NCBI GenBank assembly: GCA_963851265.1
Contig: CAWKNZ010000002.1
Coordinates: 128,001 to 192,000 of the forward strand
Length of the DNA stretch: 64,000 bases
Source: an uncultured Gemmatimonadales bacterium
GTDB lineage: Bacteria > Gemmatimonadota > Gemmatimonadetes > Gemmatimonadales > Gemmatimonadaceae
Direction: 5' to 3'
Positions within the stretch are counted from its first letter, which is position 1. Every line of letters begins with the position of its first letter. Below are positions 3,209 to 64,000 of this stretch, piece by piece. Below the pieces are notes generated by a model, which was not told the DNA's origin, ran no database searches, and saw only the letters and a program-made list of their open reading frames with translations. The translations under genes and the position numbers were made by a program.

Positions 3209-6006
3209 GGGGCGGTGGCCTGGGCCTGCGCGGCGAGCCGCGCGACGAGTTCGAGCGCCTGCATCGGCGTGAGGTGGTTGGGGTCGACCGCGCGGAGCGC
3301 CTCGACGGCCGGGTGGGGCGCCGGCGCGGGGGCGAACAGCGGAAGTTGGTCCGCGGGGACGACCGGTGACACGCGTCGCGTGCGGTGACGGCCCTCCGCC
3401 GGCGCGTGCTGCTGCGCCTCGAGCGTCGCGAGCACCGCCTTCGCCCGCGCGATCACCGGGGCGGGGAGCCCCGCCAGCCGCCCTACTTCGATGCCGTACG
3501 ACCGGTCCGCCCCGCCCGGGACCAGCCGGTGCAGGAACAGCACGCGGTCCTCGGTCTCGCGCACGAGCACCGTCATGTTGCGCGCCGCGGCGAGGTCGTC
3601 GGCCAGCGCGACGAGTTCGTGGTAGTGCGTCGCGAACACCGTCTTGCAGCCGACGGCGTCGTGCAGGTGCTCGCTCACGCTCCACGCGATCGACACGCCG
3701 TCGTAGGTGCTGGTGCCGCGCCCGATCTCGTCGAGCAGCACGAGCGAGCGGCGCGTGGCGGCGGCGAGGATCGCGGCCGTCTCGGTCATCTCGACCATGA
3801 ACGTGCTCTGGCCGCGCACGAGGTTGTCGCTCGCCCCCACGCGCGTGAACAGCCGGTCGACCACGCCGACGGTCGCGCGCGACGCGGGGACGAAGCTGCC
3901 GACCTGCGCCATCAGCACGATGAGCCCGGTCTGCCGCAGCACGGTGCTCTTGCCGGCCATGTTGGGCCCGGTGAGCACGACGAGCCTCGAGTCTTCCGTC
4001 AGCTGCAGGTCGTTGGGGATGAAGCGCTCGCGCGGCATCATCCGCTCGACCACGGGGTGCCGGCCGCCGACGATGTCGAGGTCGAACCCGTTGGTGACCG
4101 CGGGGCGCACGTACCCCTCCCGCTCCGCCACCTCGGCGAGCGCGGCCAGCACGTCGAGCTCGGCCAGGCGCGCGGCCGCGCGCTGCAGCGGGCCGATGGC
4201 CGCGCCCACGCGCGCGCGCAGCGCGTCGCACACCGCGCGCTCGCGCGCCTCGATCGTTTCGGCCGCGCCCAACACCGCGGCCTCGTGCTCCTTGAGCGCG
4301 GGGGTGACGTAGCGCTCCGCGCCGGCCAGCGTCTGCCGGCGCTGGAAGTCGGCGGGGACGAGGTGGCGGTGCGCGTTGGTCACTTCGAGGAAGTAGCCGA
4401 ACACGCGGTTGAAGCCCACCTTGAGCGACGGGATCCCGGTGCGCGCGCGCTCGTCGCTCTGGATGGCCGCGATCGCGTCGCGCCCGCCGTCGCGCAGCGT
4501 GCGCGCGCGGTCGAGCGCGGCGTCCACGCCGTCGGCCACGGTCGGCTCGTCGCCGAGCTGCAGCGGGGGGCGCGCGACGAGCGCCGCGGTGAGTGCCGCG
4601 GCGAGCTCGGCCGCCGCGCCCATTTCGTCCCACTCTGCACCGATCTCGGCGAGCCTCCCGCCGCCGACCGCCTCGGCGACGTCGGCGCGCACGCGAGCGA
4701 GCGCGTCGCGCACGTCGGGCATCCGCGCGAGCGAGTCGCCCAGCAGGCGCAGCTCGCGCGGCGTGGCGCGGTTGGCGGCGGCCTTGCCGGCCAGGCGCTC
4801 CACGTCGCGCACCCCGTCGAGCGCCTCGCGCAGCGCGCCGCGCGCGAGCGGGGCGGCGGCGAACGCGGCCACCGCGTCGAGCCGCGCCTCGATGGCCGCG
4901 ACGTCGACGAGCGGCGCGAGCAGCCAGCGTCGCAGCAGCCGCGCGCCCATCGGCGTCGCCGTCCGATCGAGCACCGCGACCAGGGTGTCGGCCTCGCCCG
5001 CGTCGTCCGCGGAGCGCGGGCGCAGCGACTCGACGAGTTCGAGGTTGCGGCGCGTCATCTCGTCGAGCGGCATGGCCCCGCCCGCGCGCTCCACGGTGGG
5101 GCGCGCGAGGTGCGGGAGGCCGCCCGGCTGCAACTCGCGCAGGTAGCGCAGCAGCGCGCCCGCGACGCCGACGAGCGTCTGGTCGCCGTCCGCCCCCAGG
5201 CCGAGCGCGTCGACGCCGACGTCGTACTGGCGCCGCAGCTCGTCGGCGCCGAGCGCGGGGTCGAACTCCCACGCGTCGCGCTCGGTGCGGAGCGGCGGGG
5301 CGCCCTGGTCGGCCCACGCCATGACGCGCTCCGCGCCGTCGTCCGGGACGCCGTTAGGCACGGACCCGGCGGCGCCGCGGGCGCGCTCGTCGCGCGCGAC
5401 GACCAGCTCGCGCGGGGCGTAGCGGGCGAAGAGCGCGTCGCCGTCGGCCGCGGGCGCGGTCGCGAGGCGCAACTCGCCCGTCGACAGGTCGGCGGCGGCG
5501 AGGACGAGGCGCTCGACGCCCGCGGCCCGGTCCACGCGCGCGGCCGCGACGAAGGTGTTGCGCGACGCGTCGAGCAACTCGTCGGCGAACGCGGCGCCGG
5601 GCGTGACGGTCTCGACGACCTCGCGGCGCACGACGCCCTTGGCGAGCTTCGGGTCCTCGACCTGCTCGCACACCGCGACGCGGAACCCTCGCGCGACGAG
5701 CCGCCGCACGTACTCGCCGCACGCCCGCACGGGCACGCCCGCGAGCGGCACGTCGGCCGCGCCGCCGTTGTTGCGCGCCGTGAGCGTGAGGCCGAGCACG
5801 CGCGCGGCGACCTCGGCGTCGCCGTAGAACATCTCGTAGAAGTCGCCCATCCGGAAGAACACGATCGCGTCCGGGTGGCGCGCCTTGATGTCCAGGTACT
5901 GCTGCATCGCCGGCGTCGCGGCCGCGTCGGGAGCGGTGGGCCTGACGTCGTGAGGCGCCGTGGCCGGCGGCGAGGCGGCTGTCCGCGGCGCGGCCGGGGC
6001 GGTCAC
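3205..6006 (-). CDS. mutS: DNA mismatch repair protein MutS
   Basis: TPAMQQY, FFRMGDFYEMF, Walker A TGPNMAGKST, LDEIGRGTST, FATHYHEL; start uncertain (GTG 6006 follows GAGG). Confidence 0.97.
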   Translation of the reverse strand: MTAPAAPRTAASPPATAPHDVRPTAPDAAATPAMQQYLDIKARHPDAIVFFRMGDFYEMFYGDAEVAARVLGLTLTARNNGGAADVPLAGVPVRACGEYVRRLVARGFRVAVCEQVEDPKLAKGVVRREVVETVTPGAAFADELLDASRNTFVAAARVDRAAGVERLVLAAADLSTGELRLATAPAADGDALFARYAPRELVVARDERARGAAGSVPNGVPDDGAERVMAWADQGAPPLRTERDAWEFDPALGADELRRQYDVGVDALGLGADGDQTLVGVAGALLRYLRELQPGGLPHLARPTVERAGGAMPLDEMTRRNLELVESLRPRSADDAGEADTLVAVLDRTATPMGARLLRRWLLAPLVDVAAIEARLDAVAAFAAAPLARGALREALDGVRDVERLAGKAAANRATPRELRLLGDSLARMPDVRDALARVRADVAEAVGGGRLAEIGAEWDEMGAAAELAAALTAALVARPPLQLGDEPTVADGVDAALDRARTLRDGGRDAIAAIQSDERARTGIPSLKVGFNRVFGYFLEVTNAHRHLVPADFQRRQTLAGAERYVTPALKEHEAAVLGAAETIEARERAVCDALRARVGAAIGPLQRAAARLAELDVLAALAEVAEREGYVRPAVTNGFDLDIVGGRHPVVERMMPRERFIPNDLQLTEDSRLVVLTGPNMAGKSTVLRQTGLIVLMAQVGSFVPASRATVGVVDRLFTRVGASDNLVRGQSTFMVEMTETAAILAAATRRSLVLLDEIGRGTSTYDGVSIAWSVSEHLHDAVGCKTVFATHYHELVALADDLAAARNMTVLVRETEDRVLFLHRLVPGGADRSYGIEVGRLAGLPAPVIARAKAVLATLEAQQHAPAEGRHRTRRVSPVVPADQLPLFAPAPAPHPAVEALRAVDPNHLTPMQALELVARLAAQAQATAP

Positions 6007-8653: not shown

Positions 8654-8763
8654 GCCGAGAAGATACCGGGGCGTGGGGGCGCGCCCGAAAGGCGGTGCCG
8701 CCGTCGTGCTCTCGCCGGCGCCCGCTCTCGCGCCCTCGCCCGCTCTCGCGCCCGCGAACCGCC

Positions 8764-10431
8764 CTACCGCAGCGCCGCCCGGAGGACCACGCCGTCGAGC
8801 GGCTCGGTCGGCTGCACGCCCAACGCCGCGGCGAGCGTGGGCGCCATGTCCACGACCCGCGTGAACGCGGGGTACTGTCCCGGCCGGAACGCGCGCCCCC
8901 AGAACAGCACGGGCACGTGGGTGTCGTCGTTGTTAGGCGATCCGTGCGTCGCGGAACTCGTCCCGCCCCAGTAGTAGAACGGCGCGAGCGAGACGAACGC
9001 CGCGCCCGCCGCGTCGTCGGGCATCATGTGGAGCCAGCGGCGCGCGTAGACGTCGCCCGACACGGCGCGCGGCGCGAGGTCGCGCCGCAGCAGCACGCTC
9101 GCCACGCCCGGCACGCGCCGCAGCCCGGCGGCCATCGCGGCGACGGTGCTGTCGGCGCTCACCCCGGCGCGGGCGAGCGCCGCGGTGTCGAGGGTGAGCA
9201 TCCCGCTCTCGAACTCGAACCCGCCGCCCGCGACCCCGCGCGCGCCGAGGGCCGCGCGCGCGCTGGCGAACACCGGCCCGACCTCGGCGTAGCCGTGCCG
9301 CGGCGCGTTGGGCACCGACAGCGACGGGTACGGCTGCATGCCGTGGTCGGCGGTGAGCGCGACCACCACCCGCGCCGAGTCGCGCAGCGTGAACAGCGTG
9401 TCGAGGAATGCGCCGAGCGAGCGGTCGAGCCGCAGGATCTGGTCGTGCATCTCGCGCGAGTTCATGCCGTAGCGGTGCCCGACGGCGTCGGTGGTCGAGA
9501 GCGACACGGCGAGCACGTCGGTCGCGGGGCCCGCGCCTAACTGCATCGCGCGCACGCCGGCGAGCGCGAACCCGAGCGTCGCCTCGTCCATGAACGGGAA
9601 GTCGGCGACCTCGCGCGCGGCGACGGCCGGGTCGGCCGAGAGCGCGTGCGGGAAGGTGTAGTCGGCGCCGCCGTTCTCGACCGGCACCGAGTCCGGCTCG
9701 GTCTCGATCGCGGGCGCGATCGGCGTCCACGCGCGCCCGGCGTAGCGGGTCGCGACCGCGCCCGGCGCGGCGGGCGCCGCGCCCGCCGTGTCGCCGTCGA
9801 AGCGGCGGACCCAGGCGGGAAGCGTGTCGGCATAGTAGCGGCTGGTCACGAATCGGCCGTTGCCGCCGTACCAGAACACCGCCTGGCGCGAACGCCCGAC
9901 GGGGAAGATCGCGCCGCGGTCCTTGCGCGAGACCGACAGCGCGCGCGACCGCGGGTCGGCGCCGTGCAGCCAGTCGACGAGCGTGGTGCCCCGGAAGCGC
10001 ACCGGCGAGGCCGGCCCGGTGAGGCCGCCGGCCAGCAGCGGCGCCTGCGGATCCTGCACGCCCGCCGCGTTGCGGATGATCCCCGTGTGCGAAGGAAAGC
10101 GGCCGCTCATCGTCGACGCGTGCCCGGGCGCGGTCTCGGTGATCGCGTGATCCTGGTGCGCGTTGGTGAACAGCGCGCCGCCGTCGCGCAGCCGCTTGAG
10201 GCCTCCGGTGAGCCCCGACCCGAAGCGCGTGGTGAGGTAGTCCTCGCGCATCTGGTCGACGGTCAGGAACACGACGAGCGTCGGGCGCGACGACGCGGAC
10301 CCTGGTGCCGCGGGCGCAGGTTGGGCGGGGAGGCAGCGAAGCACCGGCGCCGCGAGGAGCAGGGCGAGCAGCGGGGTGACGAGCGACGCGACGAGCGGCG
10401 CCGCGCGATGAAGGCGAAGCGAACGGGTCAT
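8764..10431 (-). CDS. Alkaline phosphatase family protein (PafA/NPP-like)
   Basis: VDQMR, TETAPGHA (Thr nucleophile), DAVGH, TADHG, THGSP; signal peptide. Confidence 0.9.
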   Translation of the reverse strand: MTRSLRLHRAAPLVASLVTPLLALLLAAPVLRCLPAQPAPAAPGSASSRPTLVVFLTVDQMREDYLTTRFGSGLTGGLKRLRDGGALFTNAHQDHAITETAPGHASTMSGRFPSHTGIIRNAAGVQDPQAPLLAGGLTGPASPVRFRGTTLVDWLHGADPRSRALSVSRKDRGAIFPVGRSRQAVFWYGGNGRFVTSRYYADTLPAWVRRFDGDTAGAAPAAPGAVATRYAGRAWTPIAPAIETEPDSVPVENGGADYTFPHALSADPAVAAREVADFPFMDEATLGFALAGVRAMQLGAGPATDVLAVSLSTTDAVGHRYGMNSREMHDQILRLDRSLGAFLDTLFTLRDSARVVVALTADHGMQPYPSLSVPNAPRHGYAEVGPVFASARAALGARGVAGGGFEFESGMLTLDTAALARAGVSADSTVAAMAAGLRRVPGVASVLLRRDLAPRAVSGDVYARRWLHMMPDDAAGAAFVSLAPFYYWGGTSSATHGSPNNDDTHVPVLFWGRAFRPGQYPAFTRVVDMAPTLAAALGVQPTEPLDGVVLRAALR

Positions 10432-12203: not shown

Positions 12204-12704
12204 ATGCTCCTCCTGCTGTTCGCCCTCGTCCTGCTCGGCGCCGTCGCGCTGATCCCGCTCGGTCTGCCCGGCACGTGGCTGATGATCGCCGCGGCGTTCG
12301 GCTACAACGCGCTCGCCGCGTCCACGCCGGGCGCCGGCCGCGTCGCGACCGCGTCGCTCATCGGCACCTGCGCGCTCGCGCTCGCGGCCGAGGTGCTGGA
12401 GTTCGTCGTCGGCGCGCGCGCGGCGAAGCGCTACGGCGGGTCGCGCCGCGCGGGGTGGGGGGCGATGTTAGGCGCGCTGGCGGGCGCGGTGGCCGGCGTG
12501 CCGGTGCCGGTCGTCGGCTCGGTGGTCGGTGCGCTGGCCGGGGCGTTCGCCGGGGCGTTCGTCGCGGAGATGACGCTCCGCCGCGGCGCGGGGACGGCCG
12601 CCCGCGTCGCGACGGGCGCGCTCGTCGGCCGCGCCCTCGCCGCGGCGGTCAAGACCGGCGTCGGCGTCGTGATCGCCGTCTGGCTGCTGTTCGCCGCGCG
12701 GTGA
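12204..12704 (+). CDS. DUF456 family membrane protein
   Basis: LPGTWL, AKRYGGSRRAGWGA, GAFAGAF-E Gly-rich TM pattern. Confidence 0.85.
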   Translation: MLLLLFALVLLGAVALIPLGLPGTWLMIAAAFGYNALAASTPGAGRVATASLIGTCALALAAEVLEFVVGARAAKRYGGSRRAGWGAMLGALAGAVAGVPVPVVGSVVGALAGAFAGAFVAEMTLRRGAGTAARVATGALVGRALAAAVKTGVGVVIAVWLLFAAR

Positions 12705-12742
12705 GCCGGCGGGCGCCGCGTTAGGCGTGCCGCGTCCGCCGG

Positions 12743-15929: not shown

Positions 15930-17705
15930 ATGTCATCGTTTCGTCTGACCTCGGTGGCGGCTGCGGCCGTCCTGTTCGCGGCGTGTGCGCCAGCCCGCAC
16001 GCCGTCTACCACGCCGGCGCCGGTCGCCGCCCCCGCCTCCCCGCCCGTCGCGACCGCGCCGCCCCCGCCCGCGCCGGTCGCTCCCCCCGCGCGCGGGGGG
16101 GCCGATACCCTGGCCGGGCCGCCTGTCGACTGGCAGCTGCTCGACCCGGCGACCGACGGCGTGCCCGGCACCGGGGCCGCGCGGGCCATTCGTGAACTGC
16201 TGCGCGGGGCGGCCCCGCGACGCGAGGTCGTGGTGGCGGTCATCGACGGCGGCGTCGACACGGCGCACGTCGCCCTGCGGGGCGTGCTCTGGACGAACCC
16301 GCGCGAGCGCGACGCCGCGCACGGCGACGCCGACGGCGACGGACTCGTGGGCGACGTGCACGGGTGGAACTTCATCGGCGGCCCGGACGGACGCGACGTC
16401 AACCACGAGCGTCTGGAGCTCACGCGGCTGGCGATCGCGTGTCGCGCGGGCCGCCCGGTGCCGTCGGGGCCCGGGGTGAACGCGACGTGTACGGAGTTGG
16501 AGCGGCGCTACGACGACGCCCGGCGGCGCGCGGCGGCGCAACGGCAGCAGTACGAGGCCATCGGTCAGGCCTTCGACAGCGCGGCGTCCGTGATCGCCGC
16601 CGCGCTCCACACCGCGCCCGACTCGCTCACCGCCGCGCGCGTGCACGCCTACGCCCCGACCACCGAGGCCGGCCGCCAGGCCAAGACGCAGTACCTCTTC
16701 CTCGCCGACCAGGGTGTGACGCCGACCGACCTGCGCGAGGCGCGGCAGCAGGTGGCCGACCAGGCGCGTTACGACCTCAACCCGGACTTCGACCCGCGCC
16801 CGCTCGTCGGCGACACGCCCGCCCGCGGGCGCCGCTACGGGAACGGCGACGTCGAGGGGCCCGACCCGACGCACGCGACGCACGTGGCGGGGATCATCGC
16901 CGCGCTGCCCGTCGCGCCACGCGCCGCGGGCCCGGCGACGACGCCGTCGACCGGGGGGGCGGCCAAGGGCGACGCGCCCCAGGGCCCGGCCGTCGCCGCC
17001 GACAGCGGCATGCGCGGGATCGCGCCCGCGGGCGCGGTCCGCATCATGTCGGTGCGCACCGTGCCTAACGGAGACGAGCGCGACAAGGACGTCGCCAACG
17101 CGATCCGCTACGCCGTGGACCACGGCGCGCAGATCCTCAACATGAGCTTCGGCAAGGCGTACTCGCCCGAGAAGGCGGCCGTGGACAGCGCGGTGCGCTA
17201 CGCCGACGCGCACGGCGTCCTGATGGTGCACGCGGCGGGCAACGAGGCGGCCGACAACGACCGCGACGGCCAGTACCCGGTGCCCCAGTACGTGGGCGGC
17301 GGGCGCGCCGCGAACTGGATCGAGGTCGGCGCGTCGACCTACCGGCGCGACCGGCTGGCCGCGCGCTTCTCGGACTACGGGCAGCGCACGGTCGACCTGT
17401 TCGCGCCCGGCGGCGAGGTGTATTCCACACTTCCCGGTAACAAATACGGTCGCGAGAGCGGGACGAGCATGGCCACGCCCACCGTGGCCGGGGTCGCGGC
17501 ACTGCTCATGGCGTACTTCCCCACGCTCACGGCGGCCGACGTGAAGCGGATCCTCGTCGCGACCACGACGAAGTTCCCGGGCCTGACGGTGCCGCGCCCC
17601 GGCGACGGGACCCCGGTGCCGTTCGCCTCGCTCTCGATCGCGGGCGGCGTGGTGAACGCGTACGAGGCGGTGCGCATGGCGCAGCAGGCGGCGACGGCGC
17701 AGTAG
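15930..17705 (+). CDS. S8 subtilisin-family serine peptidase, lipoprotein
   Basis: VIDGG, HATHVAG, AAGN, GTSMATP; lipobox FAAC. Confidence 0.93.
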   Translation: MSSFRLTSVAAAAVLFAACAPARTPSTTPAPVAAPASPPVATAPPPPAPVAPPARGGADTLAGPPVDWQLLDPATDGVPGTGAARAIRELLRGAAPRREVVVAVIDGGVDTAHVALRGVLWTNPRERDAAHGDADGDGLVGDVHGWNFIGGPDGRDVNHERLELTRLAIACRAGRPVPSGPGVNATCTELERRYDDARRRAAAQRQQYEAIGQAFDSAASVIAAALHTAPDSLTAARVHAYAPTTEAGRQAKTQYLFLADQGVTPTDLREARQQVADQARYDLNPDFDPRPLVGDTPARGRRYGNGDVEGPDPTHATHVAGIIAALPVAPRAAGPATTPSTGGAAKGDAPQGPAVAADSGMRGIAPAGAVRIMSVRTVPNGDERDKDVANAIRYAVDHGAQILNMSFGKAYSPEKAAVDSAVRYADAHGVLMVHAAGNEAADNDRDGQYPVPQYVGGGRAANWIEVGASTYRRDRLAARFSDYGQRTVDLFAPGGEVYSTLPGNKYGRESGTSMATPTVAGVAALLMAYFPTLTAADVKRILVATTTKFPGLTVPRPGDGTPVPFASLSIAGGVVNAYEAVRMAQQAATAQ

Positions 17706-17846
17706 GGCGGAGCCGCCCGCCGCCCGACGTGGCTGCGCGACGTGGCCGCATGCGAGAGAGCCGTACGTCCGCGTCGACGCGCGGTCCCCACGTCCCGGGG
17801 ATCCGACGCGTCGCGCGGACCGCTCGGGTCGCGTGCGCGTTAGGCG

Positions 17847-30053: not shown

Positions 30054-30115
30054 CCGCGAGCTCCCAGCCCGGAGCGCGTGGTCCACTCGTTAGGCCTTAG
30101 AGGACTCGGACGCGG

Positions 30116-45136: not shown

Positions 45137-45496
45137 GTCGCGCCGACCGCCTGGAACCGCGGGGCACGGCGCGACGCGCGCGCGACGACGCCCAGGTCTG
45201 ATCGGACCCCCGGTCCCCTGCGCCGCGCCCGGCGCCTAACAGCAGGCAGCGGGACGCTGGGTGCGCGGCGCGTGACGGAACCGGCACGCCGGCGCCCGGT
45301 GGACGGCAGCGCTCGGCGGGACGGGCCGCGCGTACGGCAGCCGGCGGACGCGGGACTGCTCGGACCTCGCGTGCCCTGGCGGCCGCGCCCGCAGGCGTGG
45401 GCTTGGACCTCGTCCGCGGTACCTTTCGCGCCAGCCCGCGCCCCCGGCTCGCGATCGCGCGCCCGGCCCCGCTGCCCTCACCCCGCACCCGCCCGC

Positions 45497-48302: not shown

Positions 48303-49784
48303 ATGCCCGGTATAGAAGAACCGATCGACCTGAGCGCGACCACTTCCGCCCCGCGTTCGGCCGCGGAGGCGCCGCGGCCGCAGTCCACCCCGCCGCCCGT
48401 GCCCGGCTTCTGGGCGTCGGTGCGCGAGGCGCTCGCCGGCAGCCACCAGGACTTCACCGCCGGCCCGTTAGGCCGTGCGATCCTGCTGCTCGCCGTCCCG
48501 ATGGTGCTCGAGATGGCGATGGAGAGCGTGTTCGCGGTCACCGACGCGTACTTCGTCGGCCGGCTCGGCGCCGACGCGCTCGCCACCGTCGGCCTCACCG
48601 AGTCGATGCTCGCCGTGGTCTACGCGCTCGCCATGGGACTCGGCGTGGGCGCGACGGCGGTGGTCGCGCGGCGCGTGGGCGAGAAGGACCCCGCCGGCGC
48701 GGCGCGCGCGGCCGCGACGGCGGTGGCCATCGGCGTCGCGCTCTCGCTCGTGCTCGGCGCGGCGGGCGCGGTGCTCGCCCCGCGGCTGCTCGCCCTCATG
48801 GGCGCGCCGGCGGGCGTGCTCGCCACCGGCACCGGGTACGCGCGCATCATGCTCGGCGGTGAGGCCAGCATCATCCTGCTCTTCGTGGCCAACGCGATCT
48901 TCCGCGGCGCGGGCGACGCGGCGATCGCGATGCGGACGCTCTGGCTGGCCAACGCGATCAACATCGTGCTCGGGCCGCTGCTCATCTTCGGCCCGGGCCC
49001 GTTCCCGGCGCTCGGCGTGACCGGCGCGGCCGTCGCGACGACGATCGGCCGCAGCACGGGTGCGCTCTACGCCCTCTGGCGGCTCACGCGCCCGACGAGC
49101 CGCGTGCACGTCGCGCGGCGCGACTTCGCCGTCGACCGTGCGGTGGTCCGCCGGATCGTGGACGTGGCCGGCGCGGCCGCCGCGCAGTCGATGATCGGGA
49201 CGGCGAGCTGGATCGGGCTCGTGCGCGTGGTCGCCACCTTCGGCGCGACGGCGCTCGCCGGCTACACGATCACGATGCGCGTGATCGTCTTCGCCATCCT
49301 CCCCGCCTTCGGGATGAGCAACGCCGCGGCGACGCTCGTCGGCCAGGCGTTAGGCGCGCGCGACCCGGGGCGCGCCGAGCGTGCGGTGTGGACGACGGGG
49401 CACTACAACGCGGCGTTCCTCGGCGTGCTCAGCCTGCTGTTCGTGTTCGCCGCGCCGGCGCTCGTCGGCGTGTTCACGCACGACCCCGGCGTGCTGCGCT
49501 ACGGCGCCGACGGGCTGCGCGTGGTCGCCGCGGGGTTCGTGCTGTACGCGTACGGCCTCGTGCTCACGGCCGCGTTCAACGGGGCGGGCGACACGCGGAC
49601 GCCGACGGTGCTCAACCTCGTCGTGTTCTGGCTGTTCGAGATCCCCGTGGCGTACGTGCTCGCGCGGACGCTCGGGATGGGGCCGCACGGGGTGTTCGTG
49701 GCGATCGCGCTCGCGTTCTCGCTGCTGGCGGTGGCGAGTGCGGCCGTGTTTCGGCGCGGCCGGTGGAAGCGGAGCGTGGTGTGA
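48303..49784 (+). CDS. MATE family efflux transporter
   Basis: About 12 TM; LAVPMVLE, FRGAGD, FNGAGDT. Confidence 0.93.
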   Translation: MPGIEEPIDLSATTSAPRSAAEAPRPQSTPPPVPGFWASVREALAGSHQDFTAGPLGRAILLLAVPMVLEMAMESVFAVTDAYFVGRLGADALATVGLTESMLAVVYALAMGLGVGATAVVARRVGEKDPAGAARAAATAVAIGVALSLVLGAAGAVLAPRLLALMGAPAGVLATGTGYARIMLGGEASIILLFVANAIFRGAGDAAIAMRTLWLANAINIVLGPLLIFGPGPFPALGVTGAAVATTIGRSTGALYALWRLTRPTSRVHVARRDFAVDRAVVRRIVDVAGAAAAQSMIGTASWIGLVRVVATFGATALAGYTITMRVIVFAILPAFGMSNAAATLVGQALGARDPGRAERAVWTTGHYNAAFLGVLSLLFVFAAPALVGVFTHDPGVLRYGADGLRVVAAGFVLYAYGLVLTAAFNGAGDTRTPTVLNLVVFWLFEIPVAYVLARTLGMGPHGVFVAIALAFSLLAVASAAVFRRGRWKRSVV

Positions 49785-49832: not shown

Positions 49833-51116
49833 TCACCTCCCCACGCGCCCCATACTCGTCACGAACCCGGCGTACAGCGCGTGCGGCTGCGGTCCGACGA
49901 TCGGGACGATGGTCCCGAAATCCATCTCCAGCTCCGGCCGCACCACGAACGTCGGACCGGTGAGCACGGCGACGATGGGCGCGTTTCCCGCGGGCCCGTG
50001 CGTGCCGGGGTAGCCGTACATCTCGAGTGCCCAGCCGAGCGCGCCGCGCACGGGGATGCCGGCAGCCGCGGCCCAGAGCGTCGAGGTCCTGGGCGCGCGC
50101 GTGCCGTTGCCGGTGCGCCACGTCGCGCCGACGTTGAGGTCGAGGCTGGCGGCGCCGACCGTGCGGGAGTTGATGAGCGTGAGGCTCGCGTCGGTGGTGC
50201 CGGTCCCGCGCGCGCCGCCGGTGGGAAGCTTGATTGCGGGCAGGAGGGCTACGTCCTGCAAGAGCGGGCGGTCCTCGCTCACGCGCCACTTGAGCGAGAC
50301 CGCGGCGTCGCCGAGTCCGAACGGCGTGCCCGTCGCGCCGGCGGTGGGGAGCTGCAGGCCGAGCTGGGTGTGCGGCCCGAGGCCGATCTTGAGCAGCGAC
50401 GGCACCGACACGAGGTGCGTGCCGTCGCCCGGCGCGTCGCGCTCGAACCCGCTCTCGACCTCGGCGTAGCCTGGCGCCACGGTGCCGGCGTGCGTCGCCA
50501 CGCTCGGGCGTTCGGGCTGGACGGCGCGCGGGTGGAAGGCGCCGCCCGGCGCCACGTCGCCCGGCGCCACGCCGGCCGCGCCCGATGCGCTGCCGGCGGC
50601 GCTGCCGGCGGCGTCGGGCGGTGCGGGCGGGGGTGCGGGGGGCGGCGCGGAGGGCCGCGCGGCAGCTGGCGCGCCGCCTGGCACGGGCGCAGGAGCGCCG
50701 GAGGGCGCGAGGCGCTCCTGCAGCACGCGCACGCCGGTGTGGTGCTGTCCCGCGTAGCCGCGCAGCACGAGGCGGCGGTGCGGCGGTGTGCCGGGTGCCC
50801 GGACCGTGTCGAGCGCGAATGCCGTGCACGACGCCGCGTCGCGTCCGGGGCGCCGGACGAAGCAGAGCGCGGGCGCGCCGGCGTTGGTCCGGCCTAACGA
50901 CCAGCGGCCGAAGTAGCGACGCTCCATGCGGGCGCGGCCGTCGGCCCCGACGCGCACCCGCACGAGCGCGTCGGCGCCGTCCGCGGCGAGCACCCACACG
51001 CTCGTGTCGCCCGGGACGGTCTTGGCGACGTCGACCCACTCGCCGGAAATGGCCGGAGGTGCAGCGGCGTGAGGAGAGGGCACGGGTGGGTAGAGGTGGG
51101 GATGAGATCGCACCAC
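49833..51116 (-). CDS. Hypothetical protein with a C-terminal putative outer-membrane barrel (MetA-pathway-like) domain
   Basis: QPERPSVATHAGTVAPG..EVESG, GDAAVSLKW, IKLPTG, amphipathic strands; no clear signal peptide; start uncertain. Confidence 0.6.
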   Translation of the reverse strand: MVRSHPHLYPPVPSPHAAAPPAISGEWVDVAKTVPGDTSVWVLAADGADALVRVRVGADGRARMERRYFGRWSLGRTNAGAPALCFVRRPGRDAASCTAFALDTVRAPGTPPHRRLVLRGYAGQHHTGVRVLQERLAPSGAPAPVPGGAPAAARPSAPPPAPPPAPPDAAGSAAGSASGAAGVAPGDVAPGGAFHPRAVQPERPSVATHAGTVAPGYAEVESGFERDAPGDGTHLVSVPSLLKIGLGPHTQLGLQLPTAGATGTPFGLGDAAVSLKWRVSEDRPLLQDVALLPAIKLPTGGARGTGTTDASLTLINSRTVGAASLDLNVGATWRTGNGTRAPRTSTLWAAAAGIPVRGALGWALEMYGYPGTHGPAGNAPIVAVLTGPTFVVRPELEMDFGTIVPIVGPQPHALYAGFVTSMGRVGR

Positions 51117-58840: not shown

Positions 58841-58862
58841 CTACGCCTAACCGTCACCTTCG

Positions 58863-60407
58863 ATGCTTTCCCGCCTCATCCCGCCGGCGTTCCGCCGCGC
58901 CGGGCGCACCGCGATCACCGGCGCCGCCGCGGTCGCGGCGGTCCTCGGCGCGGCCGCCTGCAAGAACGACGTCAACATCACGAACCCCAACACCGTCACC
59001 GTCCAGACGTACTGGAAGAGCGCGACCGACGCGCAGGCCGGCCTCACGGCGACGTACAACACGCTCGGCTACCTGGGGACGTTCCTCAGGTGGCAGGGCT
59101 TCTCGTACGACATCCGGTCGGACGAGGGGACGAGCTTCAGCCCGTGGAACGACCTGCAGAACTTCTGCAAGTTCGTGTTCTCGTCGTACGACTTCGACGT
59201 GAACCGCGACACGTTCAACGACACGTACACGCTGCTGAGCCGCGCCAACCAGGTGGTCGCCCACGTGCCGGCGATCAGCATGGACACGGCGATGCGCAGC
59301 CAGATCGTCGCCGAGGCCAAGTTCCTGCGCGGGCTCGGCTACTTCCACATCGTGACGCTGTTCGGGCCTAACGCGCCGCTGATCACCGACACGGTCACCA
59401 TCACCACGCGCGCGGCGAGTTCGGACAGCGCGACGATGTTCGCGCAGATCGAGAAGGACTTCAGCGACGCGGCCGCGGTGCTGCCGAAGCAGACGATGAT
59501 CCAGTCGGGCGGCCACGCGACCGCGGGGGCCGCGCAGGGCATGCTCGGCAAGACGCTGCTGCAGGAGCGCAAGTGGACGCAGGCCGCCGCGGCGCTGCTG
59601 CCGATCGTCAACGGCCAGCTCGGCGGCTTCGCGCTGGAGGCGGGCCCGGCCGGGTACGCGCGGCTCTTCACCAACGCGGCGAACCTCAACAGCAACGAGT
59701 CGCTGTTCGAAGTGCAGATGGGCAACCCGACCCTCGCGGCCGCCAACGGCATCAACGGGCTCAACGTGTCGAAGATGATCGGCGCCTGCGGGCCGAGCTA
59801 CTGCGACGGGCGCCCGACGGTGTGGTTCTACCGGCAGTTCCTGCTCGACTCGACCGCGGACCGCAAGGTCGACCCGCGGCTCGACGTGACGCTCTTCCGC
59901 TACAAGGGCGACACGACGACGGTCTACGCGCAGACGTGGAAGCAGCGATACGGCAGCGACACGTCCACAGTCTACTTCAAGAAGTACGGCGAGTATTACA
60001 CCGGCTCGACGGACCAGGTCTGGGACGCGCAGATCAACTTCAAGGTGCTGCGCTACGCGGACGTGCTGCTCATGTACGCCGAGGCGCAGAACGAGCTCGG
60101 GAACACGGCCGCCGCGCTCCCGTACGTGAACCAGGTCCGCGCGCGCGTCAACCTCCTGCCGCTGTCGTCCGGGCTCTCGCAGAGCGCGATGCGCGCGGCG
60201 ATCCTCAAGGAGCGGCTGCTGGAGTTCGGGCTCGAGAGCCAGCGCTGGCTGGACCTCGGACGGCAGAACCTCTTCTCCGACGTGCCGACGCTGACCGCGC
60301 ACGACGCCGACTTCAAGAACTTCGTGTACCCGAAGTCGGTGCTCCTGCCGATCCCGCAGAACGAGATCAACCTGAATCCGAGCGTGAAGCAGAACCCGGG
60401 CTGGTAA
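58863..60407 (+). CDS. SusD/RagB nutrient-binding lipoprotein
   Basis: Lipobox AAAC; EAKFLRG, LRYADVLLMYAEA, ERLLEFGLESQRWLDL, PIPQNEI..NP...QNPGW. Confidence 0.95.
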   Translation: MLSRLIPPAFRRAGRTAITGAAAVAAVLGAAACKNDVNITNPNTVTVQTYWKSATDAQAGLTATYNTLGYLGTFLRWQGFSYDIRSDEGTSFSPWNDLQNFCKFVFSSYDFDVNRDTFNDTYTLLSRANQVVAHVPAISMDTAMRSQIVAEAKFLRGLGYFHIVTLFGPNAPLITDTVTITTRAASSDSATMFAQIEKDFSDAAAVLPKQTMIQSGGHATAGAAQGMLGKTLLQERKWTQAAAALLPIVNGQLGGFALEAGPAGYARLFTNAANLNSNESLFEVQMGNPTLAAANGINGLNVSKMIGACGPSYCDGRPTVWFYRQFLLDSTADRKVDPRLDVTLFRYKGDTTTVYAQTWKQRYGSDTSTVYFKKYGEYYTGSTDQVWDAQINFKVLRYADVLLMYAEAQNELGNTAAALPYVNQVRARVNLLPLSSGLSQSAMRAAILKERLLEFGLESQRWLDLGRQNLFSDVPTLTAHDADFKNFVYPKSVLLPIPQNEINLNPSVKQNPGW

Positions 60408-60511: not shown

Positions 60512-61630
60512 ATGCGCCCTTCTTCTGCGTTGCGCGCCCGAGCCGCCGTCGCCGCGGCCGCGGCGTGCGCGTCGGCCGCCTGCGCCCGCAACACCCCCGC
60601 CGTCCGCCCCGCGCCGTCGGCGACGGCGTCGGGGGCGTGTTCGTTCACCAACCCCGTGATGCGCGGCGCCGACCCGTCGATCCTGCGCGCGGGCGGGTCG
60701 TACTACCTCGTGCAGTCGCGCGACACGGCGATCGTCGTGTACCAGGCCGCGCGGCTCGAAGACCTCGGCCGCGCGCGTCCGGTGCGCGTGTGGACGCCGC
60801 CCGACACCGGCTGGAACCACACGAACATCTGGGCGCCCGAACTCGTCCACCTCGACGGGCGGTGGTACATCTACTACGCCGCGGCGCACCGGCAGGGGCA
60901 GCCGTTCGTCGACCAGCGCACGGGCGTGCTGCGCAGCGTGGGCGACAGCCCGCTCGGCCCGTACGAGGACATGGGCCAGCTCTACACCGGCGACGGCCCC
61001 GCGCCGGCCGGGGGCCCGAGCCGGGCGCGGCCGAGCGTCTGGGCGATCGACATGACCGTGGGGCGCGTCAACGGGCAGCTCTACGCCGTCTGGTCGGGGT
61101 GGGAGCGACCCGCGGCGATCGACAAGACGCCGCAGCTGCTCTACATCGCGCCGATGTCGAGTCCGACGGCGGTCGCCGGACCGCGGCGCGTGCTGTCCGC
61201 GCCTAACGCGCCGTGGGAGCGCGGGCCCGAGCTCGACCTGCAGGAAGGCCCGGAGTTCCTCCAGCACGGCGCCGACACGTTTCTCGTCTACTCGACGCGC
61301 GACTCGTGGCTGCCGACCTACGAGCTGGGCATGCTGCGCTACAAGGGCGGCGGGGCCGACCCGACCGACTCGGCGAGCTGGACGAAGAGCGCCGGGCCCG
61401 TGTTCGCGTCCGGCAACGGCGTGATCGGGACGGGGCACAACACGTTCACGCTATCGCCGGACGGGCGCCAGGACTGGCTCGTGTACCACGCCAAGGCCGG
61501 GAACGAGCCGGGGTGGCGGCGCGACGTCCACATGCAGCCGTTCGGGTGGCGGGCGGACGGGGCGCCGGACTTCGGGACGCCGGTGCCTAACGGAACGCCG
61601 GTCGCCGCGCCGTCGGGCGAGTGCGGGTGA
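60512..61630 (+). CDS. GH43 glycoside hydrolase (arabinofuranosidase/xylosidase-like), lipoprotein
   Basis: GADP, IWAPEL, WAID, QEGP, GTGHN five-bladed propeller motifs. Confidence 0.92.
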   Translation: MRPSSALRARAAVAAAAACASAACARNTPAVRPAPSATASGACSFTNPVMRGADPSILRAGGSYYLVQSRDTAIVVYQAARLEDLGRARPVRVWTPPDTGWNHTNIWAPELVHLDGRWYIYYAAAHRQGQPFVDQRTGVLRSVGDSPLGPYEDMGQLYTGDGPAPAGGPSRARPSVWAIDMTVGRVNGQLYAVWSGWERPAAIDKTPQLLYIAPMSSPTAVAGPRRVLSAPNAPWERGPELDLQEGPEFLQHGADTFLVYSTRDSWLPTYELGMLRYKGGGADPTDSASWTKSAGPVFASGNGVIGTGHNTFTLSPDGRQDWLVYHAKAGNEPGWRRDVHMQPFGWRADGAPDFGTPVPNGTPVAAPSGECG

Positions 61631-62332: not shown

Positions 62333-64000
62333 TCAGTCGAGCGCGAGCGCGGCGGGCGCAGCGTGCGCCGCGTCGCTCGCGGCGTCGTGCGCCGCCCAGC
62401 CCGGCTGCGCGGCACGTTCCAGCACGTAAGGCCCGAGCACGAGCACATCCATGCGCGTGTCGCGGAAGCAGCGGATCGCGTCGGCGGGCGTGCAGACGAT
62501 CGGCTCGCCGCGCACGTTGAAGCTCGTGTTCACCAGGACGGGGCACCCGGTGCGCGCCTCGAACGCGGTGAGCAGCGCGTGGAAGGCCGGGTCGACGTCG
62601 GCGCGCACCGTCTGGACGCGCGCCGAGCCGTCGACGTGGGTGACCGCGGGCACGGCACCGCGGTGCGCGTCGCGCACGGGAGCGACGACGAGCATGTACG
62701 GCGCGTCGCGGTCGACCGCGAACCACTCGGCCGCGCGCTCGGCGCGCACGCTCGGCGCGAACGGGCGGAAGCTCTCGCGGAACTTGATGGCGCGGTTGAG
62801 GCGCGACTGCATCTCGGGGCGGCGCGGGTCGGCGAGGATGGAGCGGGCGCCCAACGCGCGCGGCCCGAACTCCATCCGCCCCTGGAACCACCCTACGACG
62901 GCGCCGTCCGCCAGCCGGTCGGCGACGCGCGCCGCGAGCGCCTCCGCGGGCACGCGCGCGTGCGCGACGCCCGCCGCGTGAAGGGCGGCCTCGATCGCGG
63001 CGTCGTCGAACGCGGGGCCGAGACGGGCGCCGCGCATGGCGTCCGTCGGTGCCCCGTCGGCGGCGCGCGCGACGCGGCGCGCGCCGCCGAGCGCGCGGTG
63101 CCACGCGAGTGCGGCGGCACCGAGCGCGCCGCCCGCGTCGCCCGCCGCGGGCTGGATCCACACGTCGCGGAACGGGCCTTCGCGCAGCACGCGCCCGTTG
63201 GCGACCGCGTTGAGCGCCACCCCGCCCGCCATGCACAACCGGTCGAGCCCCGTGAGCCGGTGCGCGGTGCGCGCCATGCGCAGCACGACCTCCTCGCACG
63301 CGTGCTGCACCGAGCGCGCGAGGTCGAAGTGACGCTGCTCGAGGGGCCCCTCGGGGGCGCGCGGCGGGCCGCCGAACAGGGCGTGGAACGCGCCGCTCGT
63401 CATCGTGAGCCCGCTCACGTACCCGAAGTAGCGCCGGTCGAGCGCGAACGAACCGTCGTCGCGCAGGCGCATCAGGCGCGACAGGATCAGGTCCGCGTAG
63501 CGCGGCTCGCCGTAGGGCGCGAGGCCCATGACCTTGTACTCGCCCGAGTTGACCCTGAACCCGAGGTAGGACGTAAACGCCGAGTAGAGGAGTCCTAACG
63601 AATCGGGGAAGTGCAGCTCCGCGAGCAGCTCCAGTTCTGCGCTCCGCCCCACGCCGATCGCCGCGGTCGCCCACTCGCCGACGCCGTCGACCGTGAGCAC
63701 CGCGGCCTCGTCGAACGGCGACGGGTAGAACGCGCTCGCCGCGTGCGACTCGTGGTGCTCGGCGTAGAGGAGCTCTCCGTCGTACGGGACGCCGGCGCCC
63801 GCGAGCGTGCCTAACGCGTGCCGCAACGCGCGGTCGGTGAAGAGCTTCTCCTTGACCCAGAGCGGCCCCGCCTTGAGGAACGAGCGGAATCCGCGCGGCG
63901 CGACCGCGAGGTAGGTCTCGAGCAGGCGGTCGAACTTGAGGAGCGGCTTGTCGTAGAACGCGACCGCCGCGAGGTCGGCGACCGCGACGCCGGCTTCGGC
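62333..64000 (-). CDS. O-carbamoyltransferase (NodU/CmcH/SxtI family), 5' end off window
   Basis: FYDKPLLKFDRLLETY, EHHESHAASAF, GEYKVMGLAPYG, EFGPRALG.RS, NTSFNVRGEP. Confidence 0.95.
   Translation of the reverse strand, partial: AEAGVAVADLAAVAFYDKPLLKFDRLLETYLAVAPRGFRSFLKAGPLWVKEKLFTDRALRHALGTLAGAGVPYDGELLYAEHHESHAASAFYPSPFDEAAVLTVDGVGEWATAAIGVGRSAELELLAELHFPDSLGLLYSAFTSYLGFRVNSGEYKVMGLAPYGEPRYADLILSRLMRLRDDGSFALDRRYFGYVSGLTMTSGAFHALFGGPPRAPEGPLEQRHFDLARSVQHACEEVVLRMARTAHRLTGLDRLCMAGGVALNAVANGRVLREGPFRDVWIQPAAGDAGGALGAAALAWHRALGGARRVARAADGAPTDAMRGARLGPAFDDAAIEAALHAAGVAHARVPAEALAARVADRLADGAVVGWFQGRMEFGPRALGARSILADPRRPEMQSRLNRAIKFRESFRPFAPSVRAERAAEWFAVDRDAPYMLVVAPVRDAHRGAVPAVTHVDGSARVQTVRADVDPAFHALLTAFEARTGCPVLVNTSFNVRGEPIVCTPADAIRCFRDTRMDVLVLGPYVLERAAQPGWAAHDAASDAAHAAPAALALD

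What the first reader, a model, noticed from the sequence alone, without database searches (positions are those of the whole stretch)
5353..63815. Dispersed signal (Y)GTTAGGC written into genes through rare synonymous codons: candidate DNA-uptake or chromosome-binding sequence
Seen: at least 25 exact copies by manual scan (11 GTTAGGC, 14 GCCTAAC), about one per 2.6 kb, and 23 of 25 extend to YGTTAGGC. Twenty copies are inside CDSs, read either as TTA-GGC (Leu-Gly, 12 cases) or CCT-AAC (Pro-Asn, 8 cases). These use codons that are otherwise strongly avoided in this sequence. Five copies are intergenic (12720, 17839, 30089, 45234, 58845). Most TTAG/CTAA tetramers I found lie inside the motif (about 9 outside it). 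Of four paralogous M16 LPNG sites, one uses CCT-AAC and creates the motif while the others use CCC/CCG-AAC, so the protein does not require it. A rough base-composition expectation is about 5 copies, and lower once TTA avoidance is considered. Established: Neisseria DUS and Pasteurellaceae USS are non-palindromic, occur on both strands and are embedded in genes, whereas Chi and KOPS are strand-polarised and HIP1 is palindromic. Inference: this is a DNA-level signal (self-DNA uptake tag, nucleoid or segregation protein site, or methylation/repair-driven motif) that I do not know to be described for this lineage.
Basis: partly seen in the sequence, partly recalled or inferred. Interest (0 to 1): 0.85.

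Follow-up and report, generated by a model that had tools for sequence, protein, structure and literature searches.

The report
Genome-wide DNA word GTTAGGC, uptake-tag-like
A soil bacterium of the Gemmatimonadaceae keeps the exact DNA word (C)GTTAGGC written about 1,800 times into ordinary genes against its own codon habits, much like the "self tags" that Neisseria and Haemophilus use for DNA exchange, and the word is spelled like the crossover site of integron gene cassettes.

Summary
The window holds 25 copies against 2.3 in shuffles, with 23 of 25 preceded by C or T, 12 as TTA-GGC, 8 as CCT-AAC and 5 intergenic. Genome-wide, GTTAGGC is the most over-represented 7-mer (1,762 copies; 11-18 times three nulls). 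It is strand-symmetric and has no wider flank conservation, so it is not a mobile element.

New here:
- Copies persist between species about ten times better than other rare codons.
- Gains and losses run through single synonymous steps.
- Gaps of 50-200 bp are depleted in four genomes.
- Orientation follows gene direction, not the local majority strand.
- Word density rises about five-fold with gene GC3 in all four rich genomes tested, which points to a recombination-coupled process.
- Vsr was found in none of the 10 rich genomes. The integron integrase, ComEC and PilQ do not track the trait.
- The extended word C-GTTAGGC-(G>A~C>>T) matches the attC R' sites of relatives' integrons.

Best reading (about 0.45): a DUS/USS-like self tag spread by uptake or recombination drive. 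The reader protein is unknown and uptake is untested.

This scan had already reported the same word from six other windows of this genome and from another genome.

The parts
5353..5359 (+). word copy, antisense in mutS (3205-5907 -), read GTG-CCT-AAC-GGC (V-P-N-G)
8932..8938 (+). word copy, antisense in phosphodiesterase gene (8764-10272 -), TCG-CCT-AAC
9535..9541 (-). word copy, sense in the same gene, CAG-TTA-GGC; one of the 2 copies without Y at -1
12467..12473 (+). word copy, sense in DUF456 gene, ATG-TTA-GGC
12720..12726 (+). intergenic copy in a convergent spacer (12704/12743)
17063..17069 (-). word copy, antisense in subtilase gene, GTG-CCT-AAC
17839..17845 (+). intergenic copy; lies in one of about 7 synteny-break intervals versus G001
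19159..19165 (-). word copy, sense in RNase II-type (RNB) gene, TCG-TTA-GGC
20082..20088 (-). word copy, sense in acyl-CoA dehydrogenase gene, GCG-TTA-GGC
21942..21948 (-). word copy, sense in TetR gene, GCG-TTA-GGC
30089..30095 (+). intergenic copy
37147..37153 (+). word copy, sense in M16 peptidase 1, GCG-TTA-GGC
37404..37410 (-). word copy, antisense in M16 peptidase 2 at the L-P-N-G site (CTG-CCT-AAC); the three paralogues use CCC or CCG
44839..44845 (+). word copy, sense, GTG-TTA-GGC, in a gene with no Pfam match
45234..45240 (-). intergenic copy
46330..46336 (-). word copy, antisense in 2-hydroxyacid dehydrogenase + ACT (serA-like) gene, CTG-CCT-AAC
46948..46954 (+). word copy, sense in the same gene, CTG-TTA-GGC
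48467..48473 (+). word copy, sense in MatE gene, CCG-TTA-GGC
49349..49355 (+). word copy, sense in MatE gene, GCG-TTA-GGC
50892..50898 (-). word copy, sense, TCG-TTA-GGC
58845..58851 (-). intergenic copy (TonB-dependent receptor / SusD spacer); second copy without Y at -1
59366..59372 (-). word copy, antisense in SusD gene, GGG-CCT-AAC
61201..61207 (-). word copy, antisense in GH43 gene, GCG-CCT-AAC
61585..61591 (-). word copy, antisense in GH43 gene, GTG-CCT-AAC
63809..63815 (-). word copy, sense, GCG-TTA-GGC, in a gene that runs off the window end

Best explanation
The 9-bp signal C-GTTAGGC-(G>A~C>>T) is a position-independent, DNA-level self tag. It is read on double- or single-stranded DNA by a still unidentified sequence-specific protein that acts in DNA exchange. 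The most likely reader is the DNA-binding step of natural transformation, as with DUS/ComP in Neisseriaceae and USS in Pasteurellaceae.

Proposed mechanism (inferred, not shown):
- Fragments that carry the word are taken up, or recombined, preferentially.
- Point mutations that create the word are therefore transmitted more often than their alternatives. The route is CTG to TTG to TTA at Leu-Gly, and CCC or CCG to CCT at Pro-Asn.
- The word piles up wherever the protein code allows it, and fastest where recombination is most frequent.

Shown here: the enrichment, the maintenance of individual copies, the stepwise turnover, the spacing, the lack of polarity, and the link with GC3.
Inferred: the coupling to uptake or recombination, and the existence of a specific receptor.
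For: 1. Hyper-abundance of one exact non-palindromic word: 1,762 copies, 11-14 times Markov expectations and 18 times a codon-preserving shuffle. There are 885 + and 877 - copies and no flank conservation beyond -1 and +7.

2. Placement follows constraint, not gene function.
- Synonymous sites in unrelated genes such as mutS, RNase II, M16 peptidases, MatE and SusD.
- 205 copies supply stop codons: 122 of 437 TAA and 83 of 746 TAG.
- Convergent spacers hold 1.15 per kb, divergent spacers 0.34 and CDS 0.32.
- Words per gene fit a Poisson by length.

3. Individual copies are maintained. TTA inside the word is the same codon in congeners G001 and G004 in 48% (n=61) and 53% (n=34) of cases. Most other rare codons are kept at 3-15% (a few small classes reach 17-24%). 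At conserved Leu-Gly, P(word in other genome | word in G000) is 0.50, 0.60 and 0.65, against 0.07, 0.09 and 0.22 when G000 lacks it. Treangen et al. 2008 (PMC2397512, passages read) describe the same pattern for DUS: permissive sites, yet highly conserved.

4. Non-shared copies face CTG-GGC or TTG-GGC far more often than codon usage predicts. GTTGGGC is the only strongly enriched one-off variant, at 2.0-2.5 times. This indicates stepwise point mutation.

5. Short gaps are depleted (50-200 bp: 0.2-0.8 times Poisson) and 300-1,000 bp gaps are in excess in G000, G001, G004 and G012.

6. Word density rises with gene GC3 in every rich genome tested. In G000 rho is 0.35 (n=3,173 genes) and TTA-GGC per Leu-Gly goes from 2.7% in the lowest decile to 15.4% in the highest. 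G001 gives rho 0.40, G004 0.38 and G012 0.32. Within-genome GC content tracks recombination in bacteria (Lassalle et al. 2015, PMC4450053, abstract read).

7. A 45-kb word desert, shared by three congeners, has lower GC3 and lower between-species identity (77-78% against 83%).

8. ComEC (31 of 31 genomes) and a PilQ-like secretin (30 of 31) are present.
Against: - No uptake experiment exists, and no receptor was found.
- ComEC, PilQ and the one stand-alone PilA-like pilin I tested occur in word-rich and word-poor genomes alike, so they explain nothing about the patchy distribution.
- I found no report of competence in this phylum (searches; listings only).
- The word is shorter (7-9 bp) than DUS (10-12 bp) or USS (9-bp core plus flanks).
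- One-off variants that keep TTAG are not enriched (0.09-0.56 times), whereas singly mismatched DUS and USS are (Bakkali 2007, PMC1939737, passages read).
- Inverted pairs that could act as terminators are rare: 6 neighbour pairs within 50 bp.
- The GC3 link could reflect gene age or expression rather than recombination.
- The exact identity with the integron core site, including the -1 and +7 preferences, is not predicted by a plain uptake model.
- The genus-wide desert contains core genes (gidA, parA, parB), not foreign DNA.
Confidence: 0.45

Rival explanations
1. Chi-like signal. The word is read by a RecBCD/AddAB-type helicase-nuclease on linear DNA ends. It switches the enzyme from degradation to RecA loading, marks DNA as self and stimulates recombination locally.
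For: - The size (7-8 nt), asymmetry, over-representation and maintenance in core genes resemble Chi (recalled knowledge of Chi in E. coli, Lactococcus and Staphylococcus).
- The GC3 link would follow if the word raises local recombination.
Against: - Orientation shows no replication-type polarity. The sense fraction is 0.77 in genes co-oriented with the local majority strand (358 words) and 0.76 in counter-oriented genes (112 words), Fisher p=0.9. The same holds around the strand switch on contig C2.
- GC skew is very weak, so the leading strand is only approximated.
- The enrichment (11-18 times) is well above what I recall for known Chi sites.
- RecBCD/AddAB genes were not searched for.
Confidence: 0.12
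2. Integron-lineage reading. The words are binding or crossover half-sites for an integron integrase or a relative. They would be genome-wide attG-like landing pads for cassettes, or imprints of abortive attC-by-genome strand exchanges.
For: - The word equals the attC R' / attI R-box consensus GTTRRRY (PMC12901181 and PMC3681742, passages read).
- In word-poor relatives G019, G021, G023 and G029 the word is the R'/R'' of 50 attC sites.
- The -1 and +7 preferences of those sites (C 0.96; G .52, A .22, C .20, T .06) match the genome-wide copies in all coding classes and in spacers (C .74-.85; G .51-.58, A .14-.29, C .16-.24, T .04-.05).
- Rich genomes occur only in the order whose integrons use this spelling.
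- G000 itself has attC-like sites and an intI.
Against: - intI does not track the trait. intI or its remnants were found in 7 of 10 rich and 15 of 21 poor genomes. Genomes with an intact intI (G019) or intI fragments (G021) and long arrays are word-poor.
- intI is interrupted in G000, is a pseudogene in G001 and is frameshifted in G012, yet the words are maintained.
- Genome-wide copies lack R''/L partners: only 11 '-+' neighbour pairs lie within 160 bp, and about 6 of them look like attC.
- Only 1 of about 7 synteny-break intervals in the window holds a word.
Confidence: 0.12
3. Chromosome-architecture site. A nucleoid-associated or segregation-related protein binds the word all over the chromosome, so density and spacing are what is selected.
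For: - A fixed 50-200 bp exclusion zone appears at very different densities (mean gap 2.6 kb in G000, 0.73 kb in G012).
- Individual copies are conserved.
- The largest desert in three congeners surrounds gidA-parA-parB.
Against: - G012 has normal word density around its parAB.
- Density varies 40-fold between related genomes, and most relatives do without the word.
- There is no enrichment in promoter-bearing divergent spacers.
- There is no polarity.
Confidence: 0.13
4. Functionless by-product of a sequence-specific repair or methylation bias (VSP-like repair, as proposed for HIP1 or CCWGG).
For: Only the general precedent that repair biases can shape oligomer frequencies (recalled).
Against: - Vsr (PF03852) was found in 3 of 31 genomes, all word-poor, and in 0 of 10 rich ones.
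- C5 methyltransferase (PF00145) was found in 3 of 31: two poor genomes and one fragment in rich G018.
- The word is not palindromic.
- Creating it needs G:C to A:T changes in a 73% GC genome.
- N6/N4 methyltransferases were not searched for.
Confidence: 0.05
5. Translational device: rare TTA codons as a regulatory brake, like bldA in Streptomyces.
For: - TTA makes up 1.0% of Leu codons.
- A tRNA-Leu(UAA) gene exists.
Against: - 77% of TTA codons sit in one fixed 7-mer context.
- 271 copies are antisense, 285 are intergenic and 205 are stop codons.
- Antisense copies were better conserved than other CCT codons versus G001 (36% against 6%), though not clearly versus G004 (14% against 9%, n=7).
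Confidence: 0.01

Closest known systems
DNA uptake sequences: DUS of Neisseriaceae (read by the minor pilin ComP) and USS of Pasteurellaceae
   Same: - A short non-palindromic word, hundreds to thousands of copies, on both strands.
- Mostly inside genes at permissive positions and near gene 3' ends.
- Individual copies conserved far above background.
- More even spacing than random.
- A sharp drop from the perfect word to mismatched forms.
(compared with passages of PMC2397512 and PMC1939737)
   Different: - Different phylum (Gemmatimonadota).
- Shorter (7-9 bp).
- Patchy within one order rather than family-wide.
- Almost no terminator-type inverted pairs.
- One-off variants mostly not enriched.
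- Spelled like the integron core site.
- Uptake bias and a receptor are untested.
Integron core site (R' of attC and R box of attI, GTTRRRY; crossover between G and TT)
   Same: - Identical 7-mer and the same -1 and +7 preferences as the attC R' sites of related genomes.
- G000 carries attC-like sites built from the same word.
   Different: - The 1,700 dispersed copies have no R''/L'/L'' partners and no cassette periodicity (one run of 5 same-strand copies in the whole genome).
- They lie in frame in housekeeping genes.
- They do not depend on an intact intI.
Chi, and the polar KOPS/AIMS octamers
   Same: Short asymmetric over-represented words in core DNA.
   Different: No strand polarity beyond gene direction, and much stronger enrichment.
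HIP1 of cyanobacteria
   Same: A hyper-abundant exact octamer written into genes.
   Different: HIP1 is palindromic and has been linked to methyltransferases (recalled). This word is not palindromic, and Vsr and C5 methyltransferases are not found in rich genomes.

Membership tests
DNA uptake sequences (DUS/USS) | DNA carrying the word is taken up preferentially by competent cells | not testable with these tools
   Needs uptake or transformation assays. I found no report of competence in the phylum (listings only).
DNA uptake sequences (DUS/USS) | Genome-wide hyper-abundance of one short non-palindromic word on both strands | tested here: met
   1,762 copies against 127-160 expected, top z of all 7-mers; 885 + and 877 -.
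DNA uptake sequences (DUS/USS) | Copies sit in permissive positions of core DNA but are themselves conserved | tested here: met
   Synonymous sites, stop codons and convergent spacers. Retention is 48-53% against 3-15% for most other rare codons.
DNA uptake sequences (DUS/USS) | A dedicated sequence-specific receptor (ComP in Neisseria) | tested here: inconclusive
   G000 has 9 pilin-like genes. The one stand-alone PilA-like gene I tested has orthologues in rich and poor genomes. The other 8 were not tested.
DNA uptake sequences (DUS/USS) | DNA import machinery present (ComEC channel, secretin) | tested here: met
   ComEC in 31 of 31 genomes and a PilQ-like protein in 30 of 31 (below the family cut-off), but equally in word-poor genomes.
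DNA uptake sequences (DUS/USS) | Singly mismatched forms also over-represented | tested here: not met
   Only GTTGGGC (2.0-2.5 times) is strongly raised, with GTTCGGC and GGTAGGC mildly so. The nine variants keeping TTAG are at 0.09-0.56 times the order-1 expectation. This is a usual property of the family, not a defining one.
Chi / KOPS-type polar signals | Orientation bias with the direction of replication | tested here: not met
   Sense fraction is 0.77 in co-oriented and 0.76 in counter-oriented genes. The proxy is the local majority gene strand, because ori and ter are not mapped.
Integron attC / attI recombination sites | Core site GTTRRRY | tested here: met
   Exact GTTAGGC, with the same -1 and +7 preferences as 50 attC R' sites of relatives.
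Integron attC / attI recombination sites | Paired R''/L''-L'/R' hairpin (attC) or L/R boxes beside intI (attI), with cassette periodicity | tested here: not met
   Only 11 '-+' neighbour pairs within 160 bp, about 6 of them attC-like; one same-strand run of 5 copies. The remaining ~1,740 copies are solitary.
Integron attC / attI recombination sites | Dependence on an integron integrase | tested here: not met
   intI or remnants found in 7 of 10 rich and 15 of 21 poor genomes. It is broken in G000, G001 and G012.
VSP-repair / methylation-driven words (HIP1, CCWGG) | Cognate C5 methyltransferase and Vsr-type endonuclease | tested here: not met
   Vsr in 0 of 10 rich genomes; C5 methyltransferase in 1 of 10 (a fragment).

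The most novel reading that the evidence does not exclude
The DNA-exchange machinery of these bacteria reads the same 9-bp word that integron integrases use as their crossover site. Import or recombination would then be tuned to gene cassettes ('cassette scavenging'). The thousands of copies in housekeeping genes would be the molecular-drive by-product of that preference. This would tie natural transformation mechanistically to integrons and would be the first uptake-type signal outside Proteobacteria.
Probability: 0.15. Interest if true: 0.95.

Novelty: new variant of a known kind. Interest (0 to 1): 0.8.

Why it matters
- Sequence-specific self tags for DNA exchange are described only for Neisseriaceae and Pasteurellaceae (abstracts of PMC1939737 and PMC7811141). 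A third, independent case in uncultivated-rich soil Gemmatimonadota would show that the phenomenon is general.
- Because closely related genomes have or lack the word, the case comes with natural controls for finding the receptor by gene-content comparison.
- The identity with the integron core site, flanks included, is unlikely to be chance: one 7-mer out of 8,192 strand-collapsed words. It offers a testable link between DNA import or recombination and cassette capture.
- Practically, the word is a cheap marker of long-resident, recombining DNA in these genomes. It also explains their odd TTA, TAA and TAG usage.

Tried and rejected
- **Mobile element or longer repeat.** Rejected. There is no conservation beyond -1 and +7 in a 37-nt logo of all 1,762 copies.
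- **Protein motif.** Rejected. The genes are unrelated, two reading frames on opposite strands are used, and the paralogous LPNG sites use other codons.
- **Replication polarity.** Not found.
- **Word-mediated rearrangements.** Only 1 of about 7 synteny-break intervals in the window holds a word.
- **Word sites forcing amino-acid changes.** No. The dipeptide at word sites is as conserved as, or more conserved than, at other Leu-Gly sites (87% against 71% versus G001; not significant versus G004, G012 and G006).
- **One word per gene.** No. Counts fit a Poisson by gene length.
- **Deserts as foreign islands.** The largest desert is core DNA (gidA-parA-parB), conserved in the genus. The other deserts were not annotated.
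- **Origin-linked exclusion as a general rule.** No. G012 has normal density at parAB.
- **Phyletic association with the trait.** intI, ComEC, PilQ, one PilA-like pilin, Vsr and C5 methyltransferase were tested and none tracks it.
- **Literature.** Searches for the word with 'integron', and for Gemmatimonadota with uptake sequences or natural transformation, gave nothing relevant (listings only).
- **rpoB tree.** It finished only in its quick form. Three rows (G022, G024, G029) were probably translated from the wrong strand and form a spurious long branch. Four genomes had no usable rpoB match.


Full report
**Earlier notes of this scan.** The scan had already reported this word from six other windows of the same genome and from one other genome. 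I took one lead from those notes, the identity with the integron core site, and checked it here. Everything else below is my own test.

**Organism.** The window is G000:C2:128001-192000 of a 4.60-Mb, 12-contig assembly with 73% G+C. Its RpoB is 82-84% identical to MAGs labelled Gemmatimonas sp., Gemmatimonadaceae bacterium or Gemmatimonadetes bacterium.

**Observation in the window.** GTTAGGC occurs 25 times. Dinucleotide shuffles give 2.33 +/- 1.60, and 0 of 100 shuffles reach 25.
- 23 of 25 copies have Y at -1.
- 12 copies are TTA-GGC, 8 are CCT-AAC and 5 are intergenic.
- 9 of 34 TTAG/CTAA tetramers lie outside the word.

The host genes are unrelated: mutS, a phosphodiesterase, a subtilase, an RNase II-type gene, an acyl-CoA dehydrogenase, a TetR gene, four M16 peptidases, a serA-like gene, MatE, SusD and GH43. 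Only one of the four M16 L-P-N-G sites uses CCT.

**Genome-wide enrichment.**
- 1,762 copies against 160 (order-1 Markov) or 127 (order-3), the top z of all 7-mers under both models. 1,396 copies are CGTTAGGC.
- 1,762 of 1,794 TTAGGC hexamers are preceded by G, and 1,762 of 1,848 GTTAGG hexamers are followed by C.
- A synonymous-codon shuffle that keeps each protein and each gene's codon usage gives 71 +/- 5 CDS copies against 1,288 observed.
- Strands are balanced, 885 to 877. Outside the core only -1 (C .79, T .14) and +7 (G .54, A .22, C .19, T .05) carry information. The same preferences hold separately for intergenic, TTA-GGC, CCT-AAC and other copies. They therefore belong to the signal and are not a codon artefact.

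**Placement.**
- Inside CDSs, 993 copies are TTA-GGC, 200 are CCT-AAC, 71 use CTA and 24 use GTT-AGG. The two frames that would create stop codons are empty.
- The sense bias of 79% is what dipeptide supply predicts: 7.9% of 12,713 Leu-Gly and 11% of 1,865 Pro-Asn dipeptides carry the word.
- 77% of all TTA codons lie in the word.
- 205 copies provide the stop codon of a called gene: 122 of 437 TAA and 83 of 746 TAG.
- 285 copies are fully intergenic. Density is 1.15 per kb in convergent spacers, 0.34 in divergent spacers and 0.32 in CDS.
- Words per gene fit a Poisson by gene length.
- The word thus sits wherever it costs least, irrespective of gene identity or promoters.

**Polarity.** GC skew is very weak. 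Word orientation follows gene strand (rho 0.64) and nothing else. Where the local majority gene strand is clear, the sense fraction is 0.77 in co-oriented genes (358 words) and 0.76 in counter-oriented genes (112 words), p=0.9. This argues against Chi- or KOPS-type polarity, with the caveat that ori and ter are not mapped.

**Spacing.** Gaps of 50-200 bp are depleted (0.22-0.32 times Poisson in G000, 0.29-0.68 in G012, 0.44-0.76 in G001 and G004). Gaps of 300-1,000 bp are in excess, although mean gaps differ 3.5-fold between these genomes.

**Turnover (new here).** I fetched 380-520 kb from each of three rich genomes (G001 and G004, same genus; G012, another genus with 62% GC and 1.4 words per kb) and 400 kb from one poor genome, G006. 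I aligned orthologues codon by codon.
- Shared positions: 32 of 88 G000 words in G001, 20 of 50 in G004, 16 of 37 in G012 and 0 of 26 in G006.
- At conserved Leu-Gly dipeptides the other genome has the word in 50%, 60% and 65% of cases if G000 has it, against 7%, 9% and 22% if it does not. This survives restriction to permissive preceding residues.
- Between G000 and G001 or G004, most rare codons are the same codon in only 3-15% of conserved residues, with a few small classes at 17-24%. TTA within the word is kept in 48% (n=61) and 53% (n=34). CCT within the word is kept in 36% (n=14) and 14% (n=7), against 6% and 9% for other CCT.
- Individual copies are therefore maintained.
- Where a copy is not shared, the partner shows ordinary synonymous codons. 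CTG-GGC and TTG-GGC are strongly over-represented relative to their usage. GTTGGGC is the only clearly enriched one-off variant. Copies arise and decay by single transitions, not by templated insertion.
- Word sites are not at less conserved protein positions.

**Link with GC3 (new here).**
- In G000 the rate of TTA-GGC per Leu-Gly rises monotonically from 2.7% in the lowest GC3 decile of genes to 15.4% in the highest. Pro-Asn goes from 5.3% to 15.9%. Rho is 0.35 for 3,173 genes.
- The same holds in G001 (rho 0.40; 0.06 to 0.69 words per kb across tertiles), G004 (0.38) and G012 (0.32), all on genes with orthologues in G000. It does not hold in poor G006.
- An A+T-rich rare-codon word is thus commonest exactly where rare codons are otherwise most avoided.
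- Lassalle et al. 2015 (PMC4450053, abstract) report that within-genome GC content tracks recombination across bacteria. By inference the word accumulates where recombination is frequent. Gene age or expression remain alternative readings.

**The largest desert.**
- C1:182877-227962 (45 kb; about 13 in-CDS copies expected, none seen) holds core genes including gidA, parA and parB.
- Its aligned orthologous DNA in G001 and G004 has 2 words each in about 36 kb, against 19 and 26 words in 34-37 kb of flanking alignment.
- It is less similar between species (77-78% against 83%) and has lower GC3 (0.910 against 0.929).
- G012 has no such desert.

**Distribution among relatives.**
- Among 31 relatives, 10 have CGTTAGGC at 2 times or more the count of the reversed control word: G000-G004, G008, G012 (6,360 copies), G017, G018 and G030. 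The rest have 3-107 copies per strand.
- In a phylum-wide sample of 221 genomes, 8 reach that ratio: 6 in the family of G000 and 2 in one genus of a second family. None of the 69 genomes outside the order does.
- A quick rpoB tree needs at least 4 changes of state if G016 (194 copies) is counted as rich. Rich genomes are sisters of poor ones. Three rows of that tree are unreliable and four genomes are missing; see Tried and rejected.
- These tallies include the unpublished genomes G011 and G078, G117 and G198, all word-poor.

**Integron connection.**
- In poor relatives the listed copies form same-strand arrays with a spacing of about 550 bp.
- Fetched arrays show 50 canonical attC sites with R'' GCCTAAC, L''/L' boxes and R' CGTTAGGC.
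- GTTRRRY is the published core-site consensus, with the crossover between G and TT. The R box of double-stranded attI follows it and is bound by IntI (PMC12901181 and PMC3681742, passages read).
- The -1 and +7 preferences of these attC R' sites equal those of the dispersed copies in G000.
- G000 itself has attC-like sites at C6:1592-1708 and C10:188.9-203.8 kb. Its intI is interrupted by a ~2-kb element that encodes a large serine recombinase.
- intI does not track the trait.
- The dispersed copies are solitary.
- Synteny breaks do not coincide with them.
- The shared spelling therefore looks real, but a direct integrase mechanism is not supported.

**Other candidate readers.** ComEC (31 of 31) and a PilQ-like secretin (30 of 31) are present in rich and poor genomes alike. 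One PilA-like pilin has orthologues in both groups. Vsr occurs in 3 of 31 genomes, all poor, and C5 methyltransferase in 3 of 31, one of them a fragment in a rich genome. No reader was identified.

**Verdict.** This is a real, strong, DNA-level genome tag. Its anatomy and dynamics match DNA uptake sequences better than any other known class, and it appears coupled to recombination.

Noticed in passing
G000 contig C6:2951-7580 (outside the window; locus L105): The integron integrase gene is split at about residue 265. A ~2-kb insertion on the opposite strand encodes a large serine recombinase (Resolvase + Recombinase + Zn_ribbon_recom). The C-terminal integrase piece lies 2 kb downstream.
   Followed up: partly
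G000 contig C10:188936-203792 and C6:1592-1708 (outside the window): attC-like hairpins of about 100-125 nt, built from GCCTAAC ... GTTAGGC, suggest a cassette array without a nearby integrase on C10. C10 also has the highest word density, 0.55 per kb.
   Followed up: partly
G000 contig C1:182877-227962 (outside the window): A 45-kb stretch has no word. It holds gidA, parA, parB and other core genes. The orthologous DNA of two congeners is also nearly word-free, and the region has lower GC3 and lower between-species identity. It may be a recombination cold region near the origin.
   Followed up: partly
window about 8640-8760 and 47100-47150: These are synteny breakpoints shared against both congeners G001 and G004, so they look like rearrangements specific to the G000 lineage. 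There is no word at the junctions.
   Followed up: partly
G000 contig C2:11211-11230 and C2:116118-116147 (upstream of the window): Two perfect short hairpins are made of an inverted pair of words, with stems of 10 and 13 bp, in intergenic DNA. They are rare exceptions to the solitary rule.
   Followed up: no
G012 (fetched contigs, loci L077-L096): In the richest genome (62% GC, 1.4 words per kb) GTTAGGT is also raised: 95 copies against 26 and 38 for the A and G variants. This fits the Y of the GTTRRRY consensus. Its intI is in three frameshifted pieces.
   Followed up: no
window 35810-41982: There are four tandem M16 peptidase genes, as two pairs, each with an M16 and an inactive M16_C domain.
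   Followed up: no
G000 whole genome: Stop codon usage is TGA 2,543, TAG 746 and TAA 437. 28% of TAA and 11% of TAG stops are supplied by the word, so the tag shapes stop-codon choice.
   Followed up: yes
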